From Squalus acanthias (lineage: Eukaryota): a stretch of 64,000 nt of DNA. The stretch covers positions 101,000,001 to 101,064,000 of the forward strand of contig CM059431.1 of NCBI GenBank assembly GCA_030390025.1. Reading direction: 5' to 3'. The position numbers and the translations under genes were made by a program. The notes beneath the pieces are model-generated. The model saw nothing but the letters and a program-made list of their open reading frames with translations, had not been told where the DNA came from and did no database searches. Below, one piece after another: positions 666 to 52,680 of the stretch (position 1 is its first letter; each line of letters opens with the position of its first letter).

Positions 666-1622
666 ATGGGAGAGCAGGTGATGTGTTACTGCTGCAATAT
701 GTGGGAGCTGGTGGACACCATTGATGTTCACGGTGAACACATTTGCAGTAAGTGTTGGCTGCTCGAGGAACTCCGGCTCCGTGTTGATGAGCTGGAGTCC
801 GAGCTTCAAACACTGCGACACATCAGGGAGGGGGAGAGTTACCTGGACTCCGTGTTTCAGGAGGTAGTCACACCAATTAGAGTAACTAATTCAGAAGTAG
901 CCCGTGGTCAGGGACAGGAAGGTGTGACTACGAGTGAGGCAGGTACAGGGATCCAGGAGGTAGTGTTGGAGGAGCCGCAGCCCTTGCTCTTGTCCAACAG
1001 GTTCGAGGCTCTTACTCCCTGTGTGGATAGGAGCGGGGACTGCAGGGAGGATGAGCAACCTGGCCACAGCACCGTGGTAAGGGGGGCCATTCAAGTGGGG
1101 GGAGTAAAAAGAAATGTTGTAGTGGTAGGGGATAGTATCATTAGGGGGATAGATAGGGTTCTTTGCAGCCAAGAGCGAGAGTCCCGAAGGCTGTGTTGCC
1201 TGCCCGGTGCCAGGGTTAAGGACATCTCCTCTGGGCTGGAGAGAAACTTGGAGTGGGAGGGGGAGGATCCAGTTGTCGTGGTCCATGTTGGTACCAATGA
1301 CATAGATAGGACAAGGAAAGAGGTTCTGCTGAGGGAGTTTGAGCAGCTAGGGGTCAAATTAAAAAGCAGAACCTCGAGGGTAATAATCTCTGGATTACTA
1401 CCTGAGCCACGAGCAAATTTGGCTAGGGTAAATAAAATCAGGGAGTTGAATGCGTGGCTCAAAGACTGGTGTGGGAAAAATGGGTTTTGCTTCTTGGGAC
1501 ACTGGCACCAGTACTGGGGCAGGAGAGAGCTGTTCCGTTGGGACGGACTTCACTTGGCCAGTGCTGGGACTAGTGTCCTGGCGAATCGAATAACTAGGGC
1601 TGTGGAGAGGGCTTTAAACTAA
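666..1622 (+). CDS. CR1 ORF1p: Zn-finger/leucine zipper plus SGNH/GDSL esterase domain
   Basis: CxxC...CxxC followed by a heptad coiled coil; esterase motifs VGDSII, VGTND and DGLHL all present. Confidence 0.92.
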   Translation: MGEQVMCYCCNMWELVDTIDVHGEHICSKCWLLEELRLRVDELESELQTLRHIREGESYLDSVFQEVVTPIRVTNSEVARGQGQEGVTTSEAGTGIQEVVLEEPQPLLLSNRFEALTPCVDRSGDCREDEQPGHSTVVRGAIQVGGVKRNVVVVGDSIIRGIDRVLCSQERESRRLCCLPGARVKDISSGLERNLEWEGEDPVVVVHVGTNDIDRTRKEVLLREFEQLGVKLKSRTSRVIISGLLPEPRANLARVNKIRELNAWLKDWCGKNGFCFLGHWHQYWGRRELFRWDGLHLASAGTSVLANRITRAVERALN

Positions 1623-1660
1623 TTAGTGGGGGGGAGGTTTCAAGAGAGCAAAAAATAAAA

Positions 1661-4612
1661 ATGACAACAGAGAGGGTCATAGACATAGGTAGCAGTAGGG
1701 GAATCACAAATCAGAGCGTGGCAGGAAGGGACAGAGTGTGTGGAGTAAAAGGTAAACTGGTAAAAAGTGAAAAAGCAGGAACTAAGTGCCACAAAGCATA
1801 TTTGAAAGTTCTCTATCTGAATGCACGTAGCATTCGTAACAAAATAGACGAGTTAATGGCACAAATAACTACATATGGTTATGATATTGTGGCCATTACA
1901 GAAACATGGCTGCAGGGTGACAATGCCTGGGAATTAAACATACCAGGTTATTTAACGATCAGGAAGGACAGGCAGGAAGGAAGGGGAGGTGGGGTGGCTA
2001 TGTTAATAAAGGAAGGAATCACTGTAATACAGAGTAATGATATTGGGTCAAAAAATCATGATAATGAAACAGTTTGGGTGGAGATAAGGAATAATAAGGG
2101 GAAAAAAACATTAGTGGGCGTAGTCTATAGGCCTCCGAACAGTTGCAACTCTATTGGACGGAGTATCAATCAGGAAATAGTTGAGGCATGTAATAAGGGA
2201 ACATCTATAATTATGGGGGATTTTAACTATCATATTAATTGGACAAATCAAATGGGGCAGGGCTGCCTTGAGGATGAGTTCATTGAGTGTATTAGGGATG
2301 GGTTTCTTGAGCAGTATGTAACTGAACCGACCAGGGGGCAAGCAACCTTAGATCTGGTCCTGTGTAACGAGACAGGATTAATTAAAAATGTCCTAGTAAA
2401 GGATCCCCTTGGAATGAGTGACCATAACATGGTTGAATTCCATATTCAATTAGAGGGTGAGAAGGTTGGATCTCAAACAAGCGTGCTAAGCTTGAATAAA
2501 GGAGACTATGAAGGTATGCGAGCGGAATTGAGTAGAGTGGATTGGGAAAATAGATTAAAGGGTAAGACGACACATGATCAGTGGTGTACATTCAAGGAGT
2601 TATTTTACAACTTCCAAAAAAAATATATTCCACTGAAAAGAAAAGGGTGTAAAAGAAAGGACAGTCATCCGTGGCTAAGTAAAGAAATTAAGGATAGTAT
2701 TCGACTAAAAACAAGGGCATATAAGGTAGCGAAATCTAGTGGGAGGACAGAGGATTGGGAAAACTTTAAAAGGCAGCAAAAAATAACAAAAAGATTGATT
2801 AAGAAAGGGAAGATAGATTATGAAAGTAAATTAGCAAAAAATATAAAAACAGATAGTAAGAGTTTTTATAGTTATATAAAAAGAAAAAGGGTGGCTAAAG
2901 TAAATGTTGGTCCCTTAGAGGATGAGACCGGGAAATTAATGGTGGGAAATATGGAGATGGCAAAAACACTGAATGAATATTTTGTATCAGTCTTTACAGT
3001 AGAGGACACTAAGAATATCCCAACACTGGACAAACAGGGGGCTATAGGGGGAGAGGAGCTAAACACGATCAAAATCACTAAGGAAGTGGTACTCGGTAAA
3101 ATAATGGGACTCAAGGCGGATAAATCACCTGGACCTGATGGCTTACATCCTAGAGTCTTGAAGGAAGTGGCGGTAGGGATTGTAGATGCATTGGTAATAA
3201 TTTTTCAAAACTCCCTGGATTCCGCTAAGGTCCCGGCAGACTGGAAAACTGCTAATGTAACACCCTTATTTAAAAAGGGCAGTAGACAGAAGGCTGGTAA
3301 CTATAGACCGGTTAGCCTAACATCTGTGGTAGGTAAAATTTTGGAGTCCATTATTAAGGAAACAGTAACAGGACATTTGGATAATCATAATTTAATAGGA
3401 CAAAGTCAGCATGGTTTTACGAAGGGGAAGTCATGTTTGACAAATTTGCTGGAGTTCTTTGAGGAAGTAACATATAGAGTGGATAAAGGGGAACCAGTGG
3501 ACGTAGTGTATTTAGACTTCCAAAAGGCATTTGACAAGGTGCCACACAAAAGATTATTGCTTAAGGTAAAAAATCACGGGATTGGGGGTAATATTCTGGC
3601 ATGGATAGAGGATTGGCTATCTAACAGAAAGCAAAGAGTTGGGATAAATGGTTCATTCTCAGACTGGCAATCAGTAACTAGTGGTGTTCCACAGGGGTCA
3701 GTGCTGGGTCCCCAACTCTTCACAATCTATATTAACGATTTGGAGGAAGGGACCAAGTGTAACATATCAAAATTTGCAGATGATACAAAGATGGGAGGGA
3801 AAGTAGTGAGTGAGGAGGACATAAAAAACCTGCAAGGGGACATAGACAGGCTAAGTAAGTGGGCAGAGATTTGGCAGATGGAATACAACACTGGAAAGTG
3901 TGAGGTGATGCACTTTGGCAGGAAAAATCCTAGAGCAATTTATTATCTTAATGGCAAGAAACTGGAGAGTACTGAAGTGCAAAGGGATCTGGGGGTCCTG
4001 GTGCACGAAACTCAAAAGGTTAGTATGCAGGTGCAGCAAGTGATTAAGAAGGCAAATGGAATGTTGGCTTTCATTGCTAGGGGGATAGAATATAAAAATA
4101 GGGAGGTATTGCTTCAGTTGTACAAGGTATTGGTGAGACCGCACCTGGAATACTGCATACAGTTTTGGTGTCCTTACTTAAGGAAAGACATCCTTGCTCT
4201 CGAGGCAGTGCAAAAAAGGTTCACTCGGTTAATCCCGGGGATGAGGGGGTGGTCATATGAGGAGAGGTTGGGTAGATTGGGACTCTACTCATTGGAGTTC
4301 AGAAGAATGAGAGGCGATCTTATTGAAACATATAAGATTGTGAAGGGGTTGGATCGGGTGGATGCGGGGAGGATGTTCCCGATGACGGGTGAGACGAGAA
4401 CTAGGGGACATAGTCTTAGAATAAGGGGCTGCTCTTTCAAAACTGAGATGAGGAGGAACTACTTCACTCAGAGGGTGGTAGGTCCATGGAATATGCTGCC
4501 ACAAAAAGCTGTAGAAGCTACAACATTAATTAAATTTAAAACAGAAATAGACAGTTTCCTAGAAGTAAAGGGCATTAAGGGTTACGGGGAGCGGGCAGGA
4601 ATTTGGACATGA
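1661..4612 (+). CDS. CR1 ORF2p: APE endonuclease plus reverse transcriptase
   Basis: 983 aa open frame. APE motifs NARS, ITETW, GDFN, SDH; RT motifs GVPQGSVLGP and FADD. Confidence 0.97.
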   Translation: MTTERVIDIGSSRGITNQSVAGRDRVCGVKGKLVKSEKAGTKCHKAYLKVLYLNARSIRNKIDELMAQITTYGYDIVAITETWLQGDNAWELNIPGYLTIRKDRQEGRGGGVAMLIKEGITVIQSNDIGSKNHDNETVWVEIRNNKGKKTLVGVVYRPPNSCNSIGRSINQEIVEACNKGTSIIMGDFNYHINWTNQMGQGCLEDEFIECIRDGFLEQYVTEPTRGQATLDLVLCNETGLIKNVLVKDPLGMSDHNMVEFHIQLEGEKVGSQTSVLSLNKGDYEGMRAELSRVDWENRLKGKTTHDQWCTFKELFYNFQKKYIPLKRKGCKRKDSHPWLSKEIKDSIRLKTRAYKVAKSSGRTEDWENFKRQQKITKRLIKKGKIDYESKLAKNIKTDSKSFYSYIKRKRVAKVNVGPLEDETGKLMVGNMEMAKTLNEYFVSVFTVEDTKNIPTLDKQGAIGGEELNTIKITKEVVLGKIMGLKADKSPGPDGLHPRVLKEVAVGIVDALVIIFQNSLDSAKVPADWKTANVTPLFKKGSRQKAGNYRPVSLTSVVGKILESIIKETVTGHLDNHNLIGQSQHGFTKGKSCLTNLLEFFEEVTYRVDKGEPVDVVYLDFQKAFDKVPHKRLLLKVKNHGIGGNILAWIEDWLSNRKQRVGINGSFSDWQSVTSGVPQGSVLGPQLFTIYINDLEEGTKCNISKFADDTKMGGKVVSEEDIKNLQGDIDRLSKWAEIWQMEYNTGKCEVMHFGRKNPRAIYYLNGKKLESTEVQRDLGVLVHETQKVSMQVQQVIKKANGMLAFIARGIEYKNREVLLQLYKVLVRPHLEYCIQFWCPYLRKDILALEAVQKRFTRLIPGMRGWSYEERLGRLGLYSLEFRRMRGDLIETYKIVKGLDRVDAGRMFPMTGETRTRGHSLRIRGCSFKTEMRRNYFTQRVVGPWNMLPQKAVEATTLIKFKTEIDSFLEVKGIKGYGERAGIWT

Positions 4613-25076: not shown

Positions 25077-25113
25077 AGTTCTGACGAAAGGTCATCGACC
25101 TGAAACGTTAACT
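25077..25113 (+). ncRNA. Minimal type I hammerhead ribozyme motif in a PLE pLTR
   Basis: AGTT-CTGACGA-A-AGGTC(ATC)GACCT-GAAA-CGTT-AACT: stem I, core, stem II and a palindromic ACGT stem III. Confidence 0.8.
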
Positions 25114-50708: not shown

Positions 50709-50862
50709 ATTTACTCACAACCCCTCTGAATGATTATCAATTATCATATGAGTAATGTATATTTATGGGGTGATAATCTATAATTGATTATTGAGAAGGC
50801 CAATCAGTATACATTATTTGAATAATATACACCCTGACCAAACAGCTACCTTTATTTAATTC

Positions 50863-51071
50863 TGATGTGGAGATGCCGGTGTTGGACTGGGGTGGACAAA
50901 TGTGAGAAGTCGCACACCAGGTTATAGTCCAACAGTTTTATTTGAAATGACAAGCTTTCGGAGCGCTGCTCCTTCGTCAGGTGAAGTCCTGACGAAGGAG
51001 CAGCGCTCCGAAAGCTCGTGATTTCAAATAAAGCTGTTGGACTATAACCTGGTGTTGTGCGACTTCTCACA
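50863..51071. mobile_element. Fold-back Penelope pLTR element with two opposed hammerhead cores
   Basis: Near-perfect palindrome 50898-51074 with loop 50982-87; CTGACGA-A-GGAGC(AGC)GCTCC-GAAA on each strand; 12-bp TSD TTTATTTAATTC. Confidence 0.85.
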
Positions 51072-51237
51072 TTTATTTAATTCATCTAAGCCTATTAAGA
51101 AAGGAACCAATTTGGGCCGAATGGTCAGTTTCTGTGCTGTAAATTCTCTGTAATTCAAGAGAGTTTTAGATTGTAAAGAATTGCACCAAATTGCTAGTCT
51201 ATATAATACAACAGCTACATTATATTTTATTTAAAAT

Positions 51238-52680
51238 AAAAACAGAAAATGCTGGAAATACTCAGCGGGTCAGGCAGCGTCTGTGGAGAGGGAAACAGAG
51301 TTAATGTTTCAGGTCGATGACCTTTCGTCAGAATTGGAAGACGTTAGAGATGTAACAGGTTTTAAGCAAGTGCAGGGGCAGGGAAAGGGAGGAAAGAACA
51401 AAAGGGAAGCTCTGTGATAGGGGGGAAGGCAGGAGTAATTACAAGACAAAAGGGATAATGGTGCGAGGCAAAAGGAGATGGTAATGGGACAAGTAAAGAA
51501 ACAAAAGGTGAGTCTAGATGAGGTGTAAATGGGAATGGCAGAATCATCAACAGCTGCCGTCTGAATAAAATGGGGGCAGAGGTTATGAGCTGAAATTATT
51601 GAACTCAATGTTGAGTCCGAAAGGGTTTAAAGTGCCTAATCGATAGATGAGGTGCTGTTCCTCGACTTTACGCTGAGCTTCATTGGAACAGTGTAAGGGG
51701 CCGAGGTCAGAGTGGGAGTGGAGCGGAGAATTAAAGTGACAGGCGACCGGAAGCTCGGGGTCATGCTTGCGGACTGAACAGAGGTGTTCCGCAAAGTGGT
51801 CACCCAATCTGTGTTTGGTCTCCCCAATGTAGAGGAGACCGCATTATGAGCAGCAAATACAGAATACTAAATTGCAAGAAGTACAAGTAAATCGCTGTTT
51901 CACCTGGAAGGAGTGTTTGGGGCCCTGGAGGGCGAGAAGGGAGGAGGTAAAAGGACAGGTGTTGCATCTCCTACGCTTGCACGGAAAGGTGCCGTGGGAA
52001 GGGGAGGGGGTGATTGAGGAGTGGACCAGGGTGTCGCGGAGGGAACGGTCCCTTTGGAATGCTGAAAGCGGAGGGATGGGGAAGATGTATTTGGTGGTGG
52101 GATCACACGGAAGGAGGACGGTGGGAGGAGAAGGGGTGAGGGCAGAATTGTGGGAAATTGAACAGACACGGTCGCGGGCTCTGTCAACCACGGTGGAGGA
52201 GAATCCTCGGTTGAGGAAAAAGGAAGACATAGTGGAGGGACTGGTATGGAAGGTGACATCGTCGGAACAGATGCGACGGGGATGGAGAAATTGGGAGAAC
52301 GGAATAGAGTCCTTACAGGAAACGGGGTGGGAGGAAGTGTAGCCCAGGTAGCTGTGGGAGTCAGTGGGCTTATAGTGGATATTGGTCCGTAGCCTATCCC
52401 CAGAACTGGAGACAGAGAAGTCGAGGAAGGGAAGGGAAGAGTCAGAGATGGACCATGTGAAGGCGAGGGAAGGGTGGAAATTGGAAGCAAATTGAATGAA
52501 ATTTTCTAGTTCAGGGTGAGAGCAGGAAACGGCACCGACAGTCATCAATGTACTGGAAAAAGAGATGAGGGAGGCGACCTGATAGGACTGGAACAAAGAA
52601 TGTTCCGCATATCCCACGAAAAGGCAGGCATAACTAGGACCCATGCGGGTTCCCGGAGCAAAGCCTTTTATTTGTTAATC
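51238..52680 (-). mobile_element. Penelope-like retroelement, 5'-truncated
   Basis: RT peptides MGPSYACLFVG, LPFLD, HYKPTD and a GIY-YIG relic; TSD TTTATTTAAAAT (51226-37, 52681-92). Confidence 0.92.
51299..51335 (-). ncRNA. Minimal hammerhead ribozyme motif in a PLE pLTR, with mismatches
   Basis: AATT-CTGACGA-A-AGGTC(ATC)GACCT-GAAA-CATT-AACT. Confidence 0.65.

What the first reader, a model, noticed from the sequence alone, without database searches (positions are those of the whole stretch)
50851..51083. 209-bp fold-back retro-insertion with a hammerhead ribozyme core on each strand
Seen: an ~85-bp-arm near-perfect palindrome whose arms each carry CUGACGA-A-GGAGC(AGC)GCUCC-GAAA-GCU, head-to-head around a 6-nt loop. 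It is bounded by an exact 12-bp TSD (TTTATTTAATTC) and has no coding sequence. Known: Penelope-like elements carry minimal hammerheads with a palindromic stem III that act as dimers. Inference: this is either a non-autonomous, ambisense-ribozyme hairpin element (retrozyme-like) mobilised by PLE machinery or a one-off inverted pLTR insertion. It belongs to a different pLTR family from the neighbouring PLEs. Stem I is imperfect in both arms.
Basis: partly seen in the sequence, partly recalled or inferred. Interest (0 to 1): 0.7.

Follow-up and report, generated by a model that had tools for sequence, protein, structure and literature searches.

The report
Dead-end fold-back copy of a Penelope-like retroelement
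The 209-base hairpin is real, but it is an ordinary by-product of a very abundant Penelope-like jumping gene, which often leaves two head-to-head copies of its short leader (each with a small self-cutting RNA motif) when it integrates; it is not a new kind of mobile element.

Summary

Each arm is a copy of the leader (5'UTR) of an abundant Penelope-like element (PLE) of this 3.7-Gb genome. That element has the layout pLTR, an 892-aa RT ORF, pLTR. The minus-strand arm runs from a discrete 5' end, 30 nt below a TATA box, to the codon-adjacent "tail" end. The plus-strand arm starts 6 nt further in and stops about 40 nt short of the tail end.

The genome holds 2,980 such head-to-head pairs with many different junctions. 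This exact junction occurs 75 times.
- Of 89 pairs examined, 82 have exactly one tailed and one untailed arm, and none has two tails.
- In 84 of 89 both arms carry the same allele at the one common polymorphic site (four alleles).
- 12-bp AT-rich TSDs are the rule.

So the hairpins are made anew at each integration and are not copied as hairpins. This fits the published PLE hallmarks: an inverted copy, a one-sided tail, two RT start sites and priming on both target strands. In this copy helix I of the ribozyme is spoiled in both arms.

Verdict: a known kind of thing, of low interest. It does offer a large natural record of PLE integration.

The parts
50851..50862 (.). Left copy of the 12-bp target-site duplication TTTATTTAATTC
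   Evidence: Exact repeat of 51072-51083. 12-bp AT-rich TSDs flank 70 of 82 related fold-backs.
50863..50987 (-). Long arm. A complete copy of the PLE leader, read on the minus strand from the discrete 5' end ACTTCAC (50987) to the tail end ...CACATCA (50863).
   Evidence: Aligns end to end with the leader of source copies, which have a TATA box 30 nt upstream and an ATG right after the tail.
50863..50902 (-). The 'tail': 40 nt beyond the motif CTTCTCA. It is present on this arm only; 50863-50897 has no partner in the other arm.
   Evidence: 82 of 89 fold-backs have one tailed arm and one arm ending near CTTCTCA. In L072 the tail ends at the ORF start codon. Literature describes a 30-40-bp one-sided tail that equals the stretch between two RT start sites.
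50948..50984 (-). Minimal type-I hammerhead motif of the long arm. Helix I 5' strand UCAC, core CUGACGA, extra A, helix II GGAGC/GCUCC with loop AGC, GAAA, palindromic AGCU, then U17 and helix I 3' strand.
   Evidence: Core at 50953-50980. Features match the published PLE min-HHR description. In this copy the helix I 3' strand reads GUCA instead of GUGA, giving one mismatch.
50982..50987 (.). Junction 'loop' TGAAGT. It is the complement of the first six bases (ACTTCA) of the long arm, which the short arm lacks.
   Evidence: This exact junction occurs at 75 places in the genome, among 2,980 head-to-head pairs with other offsets.
50988..51071 (+). Short arm. The same leader read on the plus strand, starting 1 nt before CTGACGA and ending at ...CTTCTCACA, the untailed RT start region. 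The end may lie up to 51074.
   Evidence: Its helix I 5' strand is missing, so its hammerhead is incomplete.
50989..51016 (+). Hammerhead core of the short arm (CUGACGA ... GAAAGCU), followed by C17 at 51017.
51072..51083 (.). Right copy of the target-site duplication.

Best explanation
The element is a dead-on-arrival mini-insertion left by an abundant endonuclease-bearing Penelope-like element (PLE). It consists of two head-to-head DNA copies of that element's roughly 85-125-nt leader.

Inferred mechanism:
1. The PLE enzyme nicks both strands of an AT-rich target 12 nt apart.
2. Each nick primes reverse transcription on the PLE RNA. One starts at the RT start site next to the ORF start codon and gives the tailed arm. 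The other starts about 40 nt upstream and gives the untailed arm.
3. Because these start sites lie only about 85-125 nt from the RNA's 5' end, both cDNAs soon run off at or near that end.
4. One cDNA then continues on the other as template. This joins them into a fold-back flanked by a 12-bp TSD.

The hammerhead motifs are simply part of the copied leader. The fold-back has no promoter and does not replicate as a hairpin. In this copy neither ribozyme has an intact helix I.

Shown:
- the arms are PLE leader;
- a source element with an RT ORF exists;
- the arms have discrete ends;
- each pair has one tail;
- the two arms share alleles;
- TSDs and an empty site are found;
- junction offsets form a continuum.

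Inferred:
- that the 5' end is the transcription start;
- that both target strands prime;
- that one RNA serves both arms;
- the final template jump.

I put identity as a PLE by-product at about 0.9. The stated two-strand mechanism I put at about 0.55.
For: Source element:
- Promoter-bearing copies show a TATA box, then 30 nt, then ACTTCAC, the hammerhead, about 55 nt, CTTCTCA and a 40-nt tail.
- In L072 this block precedes an 892-aa ORF whose ATG directly follows the tail. The block recurs after the stop codon, giving pLTR-ORF-pLTR.
- The ORF has RVT_1 (E 2.5e-08).
- Its nearest Atlas clusters (score 0.98) combine RVT_1 with GIY-YIG.
- The RT is very abundant: 32,536 first-look candidates, and 148 of 148 scored are 94-100% identical.

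Abundance:
- 17,665 exact hammerhead cores.
- 2,980 head-to-head pairs with both cores within 30 nt.
- This junction at 75 places.
- 40 of 40 scored matches to the 209 bp are full length at 96-100% identity.

One tail per pair:
- 82 of 89 fold-backs have one tailed and one untailed arm, 0 have two tails, and 7 have an arm ending elsewhere.
- 20 of 20 fold-backs in an independent random sample follow the same rule.
- Solo copies use either end.

Same template:
- Both arms carry the same allele in 84 of 89 pairs, against 45% expected. The pairs are G/G 46, A/A 33, T/T 4 and C/C 1.
- Arms of one pair differ at 1.5 sites on average, against 3.2 between pairs.

Discrete 5' end:
- The longer arm starts 7 nt (17 of 40) or 6 nt (7 of 40) before CTGACGA.
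- Exact-match counts fall from 13,117 at -6 to 8,608 at -9 (a 34% loss). They fall only to 7,685 at -12, a further 11%.

Integration:
- 12-nt TSDs with at most 1 mismatch flank 70 of 82 pairs. They are 73% A+T against 54% in the outer flanks.
- An empty site with the 12 nt present once exists for the L013 insertion in L045, and likewise in L033.
- L013 and L024 hit the same LINE site with different alleles in both arms.

Literature:
- An Anolis PLE cleaves and extends both strands in vitro. It starts RT at two adjacent internal sites whose spacing is the 'tail', and it prefers AT-rich DNA (PMC11167929, main text read).
- An inverted 5'-truncated copy and a one-sided 30-40-bp tail are PLE hallmarks (PMC8557442 and PMC3846280, passages).
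Against: - No RNA evidence for the start site. The only runs available were assembled contigs of uncertain RNA status, which cannot show ends.
- About two thirds of arms that carry CTTCAC run on natively upstream. The 5' pile-up therefore concerns about a third of arms, and it could also be a strong RT stop.
- In vitro the Anolis enzyme showed no difference in start-site use between the two strands. That does not predict the strict one-of-each rule seen here.
- This copy's 6-nt loop is also compatible with snap-back self-priming of a single cDNA.
- Pfam did not call GIY-YIG on the ORF's C-terminal part. The VVY...YIGET motif was seen only by eye.
- No Rfam hammerhead model matches even intact arms.
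- The 89 fold-backs were chosen by an exact 12+12-nt pattern: 49 by this junction and 40 as the first on contig C1. Decayed copies are therefore under-represented.
Confidence: 0.6

Rival explanations
1. Same PLE by-product, but made from one cDNA only. Reverse transcription starts at the tail site on one nicked strand and runs to the RNA 5' end. The cDNA 3' end then snaps back and copies itself (self-priming). The second target end is joined near CTTCTCA.
For: - On the + strand the antisense arm continues directly into the sense arm, with a 6-nt loop, as snap-back would give.
- Self-copying would explain allele identity of the arms (84 of 89).
- Self-priming was proposed for PLE head-to-head palindromes (PMC3846280, passage).
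Against: - In 21 of 40 unselected junctions the two arms meet with 0-1 nt of overlap, and both reach within 1 nt of the same end (for example 7+6 nt). That leaves a loop of 0-1 nt, too small for an intramolecular hairpin.
- The 3'-terminal bases of the loop are unpaired, so there is no primed terminus.
- Snap-back does not explain why the copied arm always stops about 40 nt before the end of its template (82 of 89).
- The same junction occurs with the tail on the shorter arm in 4 of 49.
Confidence: 0.25
2. A non-autonomous, retrozyme-like hairpin element. The fold-back itself is transcribed, perhaps processed by its two ribozymes, and is reverse-transcribed by PLE machinery as a unit. That would give a family with a fixed junction.
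For: - 40 of 40 scored genome matches are full-length copies of the 209 bp at 96-100% identity, with different flanks and their own TSDs.
- The exact junction occurs at 75 places.
Against: - The unit has no promoter. The TATA box of source copies lies upstream of where the arms begin.
- The junction is 75 of 2,980 in a continuum of offsets.
- Within this junction class the alleles are G/G, A/A and C/C, always matched on both arms. The window copy is the only mismatch among 30.
- The tail sits on either arm (45 and 4 of 49). Several independent origins are therefore needed anyway.
- An 85-bp perfect hairpin (-157 kcal/mol) would bury both ribozymes.
- The short arm lacks helix I.
- The arrangement is inverted, not the tandem arrangement that defines retrozymes.
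Confidence: 0.07
3. A MITE or other DNA-transposon-derived inverted-repeat element, or a palindrome formed at the DNA level after insertion of a single arm.
For: Short, non-coding, with terminal inverted symmetry, a TSD of nearly constant length (about 12 bp) and many copies.
Against: - The arms are the leader of a retroelement, in opposite orientation.
- They end at two different defined points, giving a one-sided 35-40-nt extension. They do not end at matching terminal repeats.
- The junction offset varies from copy to copy while the outer ends stay fixed.
- Solo arms and long ORF-bearing inverted pairs of the same family exist.
- The TSD flanks the whole pair, and an empty site shows single-step insertion.
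Confidence: 0.02

Closest known systems
Canonical endonuclease-bearing Penelope-like element insertion units: pLTR, adjoining inverted 5'-truncated copy, one-sided 30-40-bp tail, short TSD (Arkhipova et al. 2013, PMC3846280; Craig et al. 2021, PMC8557442; passages read)
   Same: - Head-to-head inverted copies of the terminal/leader region.
- A tail on one arm only.
- An AT-rich TSD.
- A TATA box plus an initiator-like TCAC in the pLTR.
- A hammerhead in the pLTR.
   Different: - No ORF lies between or beside the arms. Both copies stop within about 125 nt, mostly at one discrete 5' end.
- The scale is large: 2,980 such pairs in one genome.
- The strictness of the one-tail rule is something the passages I read state only as 'often' or 'optionally'.
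PAc (Poseidon-clade PLE of Anolis carolinensis), in vitro integration (Frangieh et al. 2024, PMC11167929; main text read)
   Same: - Two adjacent RT start sites whose spacing equals the tail.
- Both target strands can prime.
- AT-rich targets.
- The hammerhead lies just upstream of the start sites and is not needed for insertion.
   Different: - In PAc the start sites lie 111-118 nt inside the ORF and the ribozyme overlaps the start codon. Here both sites lie in the leader, and the tail ends at the ATG.
- In vitro the two strands showed no start-site preference. Here each pair has one of each.
Minimal, dimer-type hammerhead ribozymes of metazoan PLEs (Cervera & de la Pena 2014, PMC4209133; passages read)
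   Same: - Core CUGANGA...GAAA.
[quoted passage not shown]
- A G10.1-C11.1 pair.
- Palindromic 15.2-16.2 (AGCU) without loop 3.
- A 4-bp helix I.
   Different: - Activity is untested.
- In the window copy helix I is mismatched in the long arm and absent in the short arm.
- No Rfam model recognises the motif.
Animal non-LTR retrozymes (Li et al. 2026 preprint, 10.64898/2026.07.22.740005; abstract, first part of Results and passages read)
   Same: Short non-coding PLE-pLTR-derived sequences that carry type-I hammerheads and depend on PLE machinery.
   Different: - Retrozymes are head-to-tail tandem repeats thought to cycle through circular RNA.
- This element is a single inverted pair with a TSD.
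- The preprint's main text has no 'hairpin', 'palindrom' or 'head-to-head'. Its only 'inverted' is in a reference title.
L1 'twin priming' inversions (recalled from memory, not read here)
   Same: A second target strand primes on the retroelement RNA, giving an inverted segment inside one TSD-flanked insertion.
   Different: In L1 the second priming is at a random internal site and the two segments are different parts of the RNA. Here both arms cover the same stretch and start at two fixed sites.

Membership tests
Penelope-like element insertion (EN+ PLE) | Sequence belongs to an element encoding a PLE-type RT with a C-terminal GIY-YIG endonuclease, bounded by pLTRs | tested here: inconclusive
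   - The arms match the leader and 3' repeat of L072, which has the layout pLTR, 892-aa ORF, pLTR.
- RVT_1 E 2.5e-08.
- Nearest Atlas clusters (0.98) combine RVT_1 and GIY-YIG.
- Pfam calls no GIY-YIG. A VVY...YIGET motif was seen by eye only.
- No solved relative in the PDB.
Penelope-like element insertion (EN+ PLE) | Adjoining inverted (head-to-head) copy | tested here: met
   -.
- 2,980 such pairs genome-wide.
- 20 of 30 randomly sampled arms have an inverted partner within 260 nt.
Penelope-like element insertion (EN+ PLE) | 30-40-bp 'tail' extension at one end only | tested here: met
   A 35-40-nt extension at 50863-50902 on one arm. 82 of 89 pairs have exactly one tail and 0 have two.
Penelope-like element insertion (EN+ PLE) | Short target-site duplication, AT-rich target | tested here: met
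   - An exact 12-bp TSD in the window.
- 70 of 82 pairs have a 12-nt TSD with at most 1 mismatch, at 73% A+T.
- An empty site was found for a sister copy.
PLE minimal hammerhead ribozyme (type I, dimeric) | [quoted passage not shown] | tested here: met
   - Read directly from intact arms: UCAC-CUGACGA-A-GGAGC(AGC)GCUCC-GAAA-GC-U-U/C then GUGA. Compared with the published list of features.
- In the window copy helix I has 3 of 4 pairs in the long arm and 1 of 4 in the short arm.
PLE minimal hammerhead ribozyme (type I, dimeric) | Recognition by a curated covariance model | tested here: not met
   No hammerhead family matched at gathering score in the window. None matched at E<=10 on the fold-back or on four loci with intact arms. 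Rfam models expect a helix III hairpin that these minimal forms lack.
PLE minimal hammerhead ribozyme (type I, dimeric) | Self-cleavage | not testable with these tools
   - Helix I covariation is weak. In the first 100 of 17,226 arms the 2.3/1.3 pairs are C-G 72, U-G 17, U-A 6 and the mismatch C-A 5.
- One of 20 inverted arms starts at the predicted cleavage site (L051).
Non-LTR retrozyme | Head-to-tail tandem repeats of a hammerhead-bearing unit | tested here: not met
   The two units are inverted, not tandem.
Non-LTR retrozyme | Circular RNA intermediate | not testable with these tools
   Only assembled contigs of uncertain RNA status were available.
MITE | Matching terminal inverted repeats recognised by a transposase, with symmetric ends | tested here: not met
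   The outer ends differ by a 35-40-nt one-sided tail, and the arms are retroelement leader.

The most novel reading that the evidence does not exclude
Each fold-back may be a frozen record of one coordinated integration event.
- The two halves of a PLE RT-endonuclease dimer nick the target 12 nt apart.
- They prime on both strands from the two adjacent RT start sites of one and the same RNA, one site each.
- The cDNA that first runs off the capped 5' end jumps onto the 3' end of the other.

On this reading the genome would hold about 3,000 natural snapshots of PLE integration. Their junction offsets would report where the second polymerase stood at the moment of the jump.

Hints beyond the main evidence:
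- Deep 5' truncation (12 nt or more) was seen only in tailed arms: 7 of 14, against 0 of 6 untailed arms.
- G precedes the 5' end in 67 of the first 100 arms that end there. This could be a copied cap, but it is confounded by the partner arm.
Probability: 0.4. Interest if true: 0.55.

Novelty: new member of a known kind. Interest (0 to 1): 0.28.

Why it matters
As a discovery it matters little. The hairpin with a ribozyme motif on each strand is what PLE integration is already known to leave behind. Two earlier follow-ups of this scan reached the same verdict in other genomes.

It is useful in two ways.
- Annotation: thousands of roughly 200-bp perfect hairpins with TSDs can be mistaken for MITEs, miRNA precursors or novel ribozyme elements. 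Rfam gave a sub-threshold mir-1597 match of 44.6 bits.
- Mechanism: the counts give in vivo support for the two-start-site, both-strand model derived in vitro for an Anolis PLE. They also add a constraint that model did not predict: one tail per pair, shared alleles in both arms, a fixed 12-bp stagger and a discrete 5' end.

Tried and rejected
- Rfam at gathering score on the window, and at E<=10 on the region and on four loci with intact arms. No hammerhead family matched; only weak miRNA-like hairpin hits appeared.
- Public runs and laying four of them. All were assembled contigs, 'RNA' was a guess for three, and X18 laid a single contig. They cannot show RNA ends. Summed word depth rises near 1499-1515 and falls after 1627 of L054, at the borders of the leader unit. 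That may be DNA copy number, so it is not used as evidence.
- Helix I covariation. The association is weak and confounded by descent.
- Empty site for the window copy itself. The left flank is unique in the genome (1 of 1 match is self). An empty site was shown for a sister copy instead.
- Cap-derived extra G. It is enriched but confounded by the partner arm.
- PDB sequence search with the ORF: 0 hits.
- Pfam on the ORF's C-terminal 151 aa: 0 families at E<=10.
- Fold of a single intact arm as RNA: -33.6 kcal/mol, z -0.17, not exceptional.
- Literature searches found no paper in the held library that describes leader-only PLE fold-backs in bulk or a strict one-tail rule. The library is partial. 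Supplements were not read, and those of the preprint are closed.
- MITE and DNA-level palindrome readings were rejected for the reasons given under rivals.

Full report
**Observation.**
- Two inverted arms lie at 50898-50981 and 50988-51074 and face each other across the loop TGAAGT (50982-50987). The repeat finder gives 68 nt at 96% plus 22 nt at 95% complementarity.
- A 35-nt stretch (50863-50897) on the left has no partner.
- TTTATTTAATTC flanks the whole at 50851-50862 and 51072-51083.
- As RNA either strand folds far better than any of 200 shuffles: -156.8 and -144.6 kcal/mol, z -18.8 and -24.8.
- The 28-nt hammerhead-like string occurs exactly twice in the 64 kb, once on each strand, against 0 in the shuffled window.
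- No Rfam family reaches its gathering score anywhere in the window. At E<=10 the region gives only miRNA-like hairpin matches and no hammerhead family.

**It is a family, but not a hairpin lineage.** The window lies in a 3.71-Gb assembly.
- Of 1,525 first-look candidates for the 209 bp, 40 were scored, and all 40 are full-length copies at 96-100% identity.
- The 30 copies fetched sit in unrelated flanks, each with its own direct repeat.
- That defeats the reading as a one-off inversion.
- In the alignment of these 30, the one common polymorphic site changes in step on both arms (C with G, T with A, once G with C) in 29 of 30. The window copy is the exception.
- A hairpin master could not keep acquiring matched changes on both arms. 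This pointed to arms that are made together at each event.

**What the arms are.** The core with non-hairpin upstream bases occurs 17,665 times. I looked at 30 of these places.
- Seven run on upstream through a TATA box that lies 30 nt before ACTTCAC.
- Three are solo copies that begin at ACTTCAC.
- Twenty have an inverted partner within 260 nt. L042/L043 are one pair seen twice, and L046/L047 share flanks.
- Upstream of the promoter-bearing copies lies an ORF with RT motifs.
- Its RT part has 32,536 first-look candidates, and 148 of 148 scored are 94-100% identical.

Locus L072 shows the whole unit:
- the end of a preceding ORF;
- about 230 nt with a TATA-like box;
- the leader with the hammerhead;
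- CTTCTCA;
- a roughly 40-nt AC-rich stretch ending CATC, directly followed by the ATG of an 892-aa ORF;
- the same repeat again after the stop codon, ending at CATCAT.

Further points on the element:
- The ORF matches RVT_1.
- Its nearest Atlas clusters combine RVT_1 with GIY-YIG.
- Pfam itself calls no GIY-YIG, so I saw that motif by eye only.
- This is the layout of an endonuclease-bearing Penelope-like element (PLE) with pseudo-LTRs.
- The window's minus-strand arm (50987 down to 50863) is a complete leader, from ACTTCAC to the tail end.
- The plus-strand arm (50988-51071) starts 6 nt further in and stops at CTTCTCACA.

**The ribozyme motif.** Intact arms read UCAC-CUGACGA-A-GGAGC(AGC)GCUCC-GAAA-GC-U-U/C, then GUGA.
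- All core positions are present.
- There is one extra base between positions 9 and 10.1, a G10.1-C11.1 pair, a palindromic AGCU in place of a helix III hairpin, and a 4-bp helix I.
- These are the features listed for the minimal, dimer-type hammerheads of metazoan PLEs (PMC4209133, passages).
- Rfam models do not see the motif even in intact arms.
- Support from covariation in helix I is weak: C-G 72, U-G 17, U-A 6 and the mismatch C-A 5 in the first 100 of 17,226 arms.
- In the window copy the long arm has one helix I mismatch (GUCA for GUGA).
- The short arm lacks the 5' strand of helix I altogether.
- In a read-through transcript the 85-bp stem would bury both cores.
- I therefore regard the motifs here as passengers.

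**How the fold-backs are built.**
- A pattern for two facing cores up to 30 nt apart finds 2,980 places. The spacers vary widely.
- The window's exact junction occurs at 75 places.
- I analysed 89 pairs: 49 with this junction (29 of L001-L030, since L016 lacked the exact anchors, plus 20 more) and the first 40 others on contig C1.
- In 82 of the 89 one arm ends at the tail end and the other near CTTCTCA. None has two tails, and 7 have an arm that ends elsewhere.
- All 20 pairs of the independent sample obey the same rule, while solo copies use either end.
- Within the window's junction class the tail is on the complete arm in 45 of 49 and on the shorter arm in 4 of 49. So even this junction arose more than once.
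- Both arms carry the same allele in 84 of 89 pairs, against 45% expected from allele frequencies. This includes the rare alleles: T/T 4, C/C 1 and no T paired with another base.
- The longer arm begins 7 nt (17 of 40) or 6 nt (7 of 40) before CTGACGA. The two arms meet with 0-1 nt of overlap in 21 of 40, and with small fillers in most others.
- Genome-wide, exact matches fall by 34% between 6 and 9 nt upstream (13,117 to 8,608). They fall by only 11% over the next 3 nt, to 7,685.
- So about a third of arms end at this point, and the rest continue into the promoter region.
- A 12-nt direct repeat with at most one mismatch flanks 70 of 82 pairs. It is 73% A+T against 54% just outside.
- For the sister copy L013 the flanks are contiguous in L045 and L033, with the 12 nt present once. 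That is an empty site.
- The same LINE-internal site, TTCATAAATAGA, is occupied independently in L013, L024, L041, L049, L038, L068 and L069.
- L013 and L024 share the window's junction but differ in alleles on both arms.

**Comparison with what is known.**
- PLE insertions are described as often having an inverted 5'-truncated copy next to the upstream pLTR, and a 30-40-bp tail often at one end only (PMC8557442, passages).
- In a rotifer PLE the inverted pLTR, a 31-bp tail on one of the inverted pLTRs, a TATA box with a TCACT initiator, and palindromic head-to-head junctions are all reported. Self-priming was proposed to explain the junctions (PMC3846280, passages).
- The purified Anolis PLE cleaves and extends both target strands and prefers AT-rich DNA. 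It starts reverse transcription at two adjacent internal RNA sites whose spacing corresponds to the tail. Its hammerhead is not needed for insertion (PMC11167929, main text).
- The window's element fits all of this. Its two outer ends are the two start sites, its TSD is the stagger between the two nicks, and its inverted form follows from priming on both strands.
- What is particular here is that the start sites lie only about 85-125 nt from the RNA 5' end. Initiation on the 5'-proximal copy of these sites therefore gives tiny leader-only insertions in very large numbers.
- Animal retrozymes, recently argued to be PLE derivatives, are tandem arrays. The preprint's main text does not mention hairpin or head-to-head forms.
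- Two earlier notes of this scan, on other genomes, reached the same general verdict. I treat them as agreement, not as evidence.

**Mechanism, and how sure I am.** That this is a PLE integration by-product I hold at about 0.9. For the route I favour two target-primed cDNAs made from one RNA, one from each start site, joined when one runs off the 5' end and continues on the other (about 0.55).

Reasons:
- the one-of-each rule;
- shared alleles, including rare ones;
- junctions whose arms meet within 0-1 nt, too tight for an intramolecular hairpin.

A single cDNA that snaps back remains possible, particularly for this copy with its 6-nt loop (about 0.25). A replicating hairpin element is unlikely (about 0.07), and a MITE very unlikely.

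Not shown:
- that ACTTCAC is the transcription start, because the only runs available were contigs of uncertain RNA status;
- that the endonuclease is a GIY-YIG;
- that any of these ribozymes cleaves.

**Verdict.** The element is a new member of a known kind and of low interest as a discovery. It has modest value as a large natural data set on PLE integration, and as a warning for the annotation of hairpins.

Noticed in passing
window 51085-52644 (- strand); also 25081-25105 (+): A second, diverged PLE abuts the fold-back. An ORF fragment at 51844-52644 has 26% aa identity to the L072 ORF over 299 aa (E 2e-23). A different minimal hammerhead core, CTGACGAAAGGTCATCGACCTGAAA, stands at 51307-51331 (-) and again at 25081-25105 (+).
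   Followed up: partly
loci L013, L024, L041, L049, L038, L068, L069; empty sites in L045 and L033: The PLE family has inserted repeatedly at the same 12-nt site, TTCATAAATAGA, inside the coding region of a LINE family. Junctions and alleles differ between the insertions. This looks like a target hot spot.
   Followed up: partly
loci L031-L060: Deep 5' truncation (12 nt or more into the leader) was seen only in the tailed arm: 7 of 14 pairs whose untailed arm is complete, against 0 of 6 pairs whose tailed arm is complete. This suggests an order of events between the two cDNAs.
   Followed up: partly
genome-wide: 2,510 arms begin exactly at ACTTCAC with a non-native base in front. In the first 100 that base is G 67, T 20, A 13. 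This could be a copied cap, but it is confounded by the partner arm's sequence.
   Followed up: partly
TSDs of 70 fold-backs oriented by the tailed arm: Position 8 of the 12-nt duplication is A in 47 of 70 and C in 1 of 70. This hints at a sequence preference of the nicking enzyme.
   Followed up: no
window 50943-51026 (-): The hairpin gives a sub-threshold Rfam match to mir-1597 (44.6 bits, gathering 93, E 1.8e-07). Such fold-backs could be mis-called as miRNA precursors.
   Followed up: no
window 666-4612 (+): A LINE with a GDSL-lipase/OSK-like first ORF (666-1622) and an endonuclease-RT second ORF (1661-4612, 983 aa open). It appears intact.
   Followed up: no
loci L046 and L047 (contig C1, about 16.7 kb apart): Two long fold-backs with identical inner sequence and identical right flanks. 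This is probably a local segmental duplication, not two insertions.
   Followed up: no
public runs X1-X24: Near-identical 31-mers of the promoter-plus-leader stretch occur in runs labelled with at least eleven coded organisms (A-K). The family, or close relatives, is therefore shared by several species.
   Followed up: no
one search place list, e.g. C15:37448688(-)/37450249(+) and C13:44316894(-)/44318648(+): ORF-bearing copies also occur as head-to-head pairs 1.4-1.8 kb apart. The inverted arrangement therefore spans all insertion lengths.
   Followed up: no
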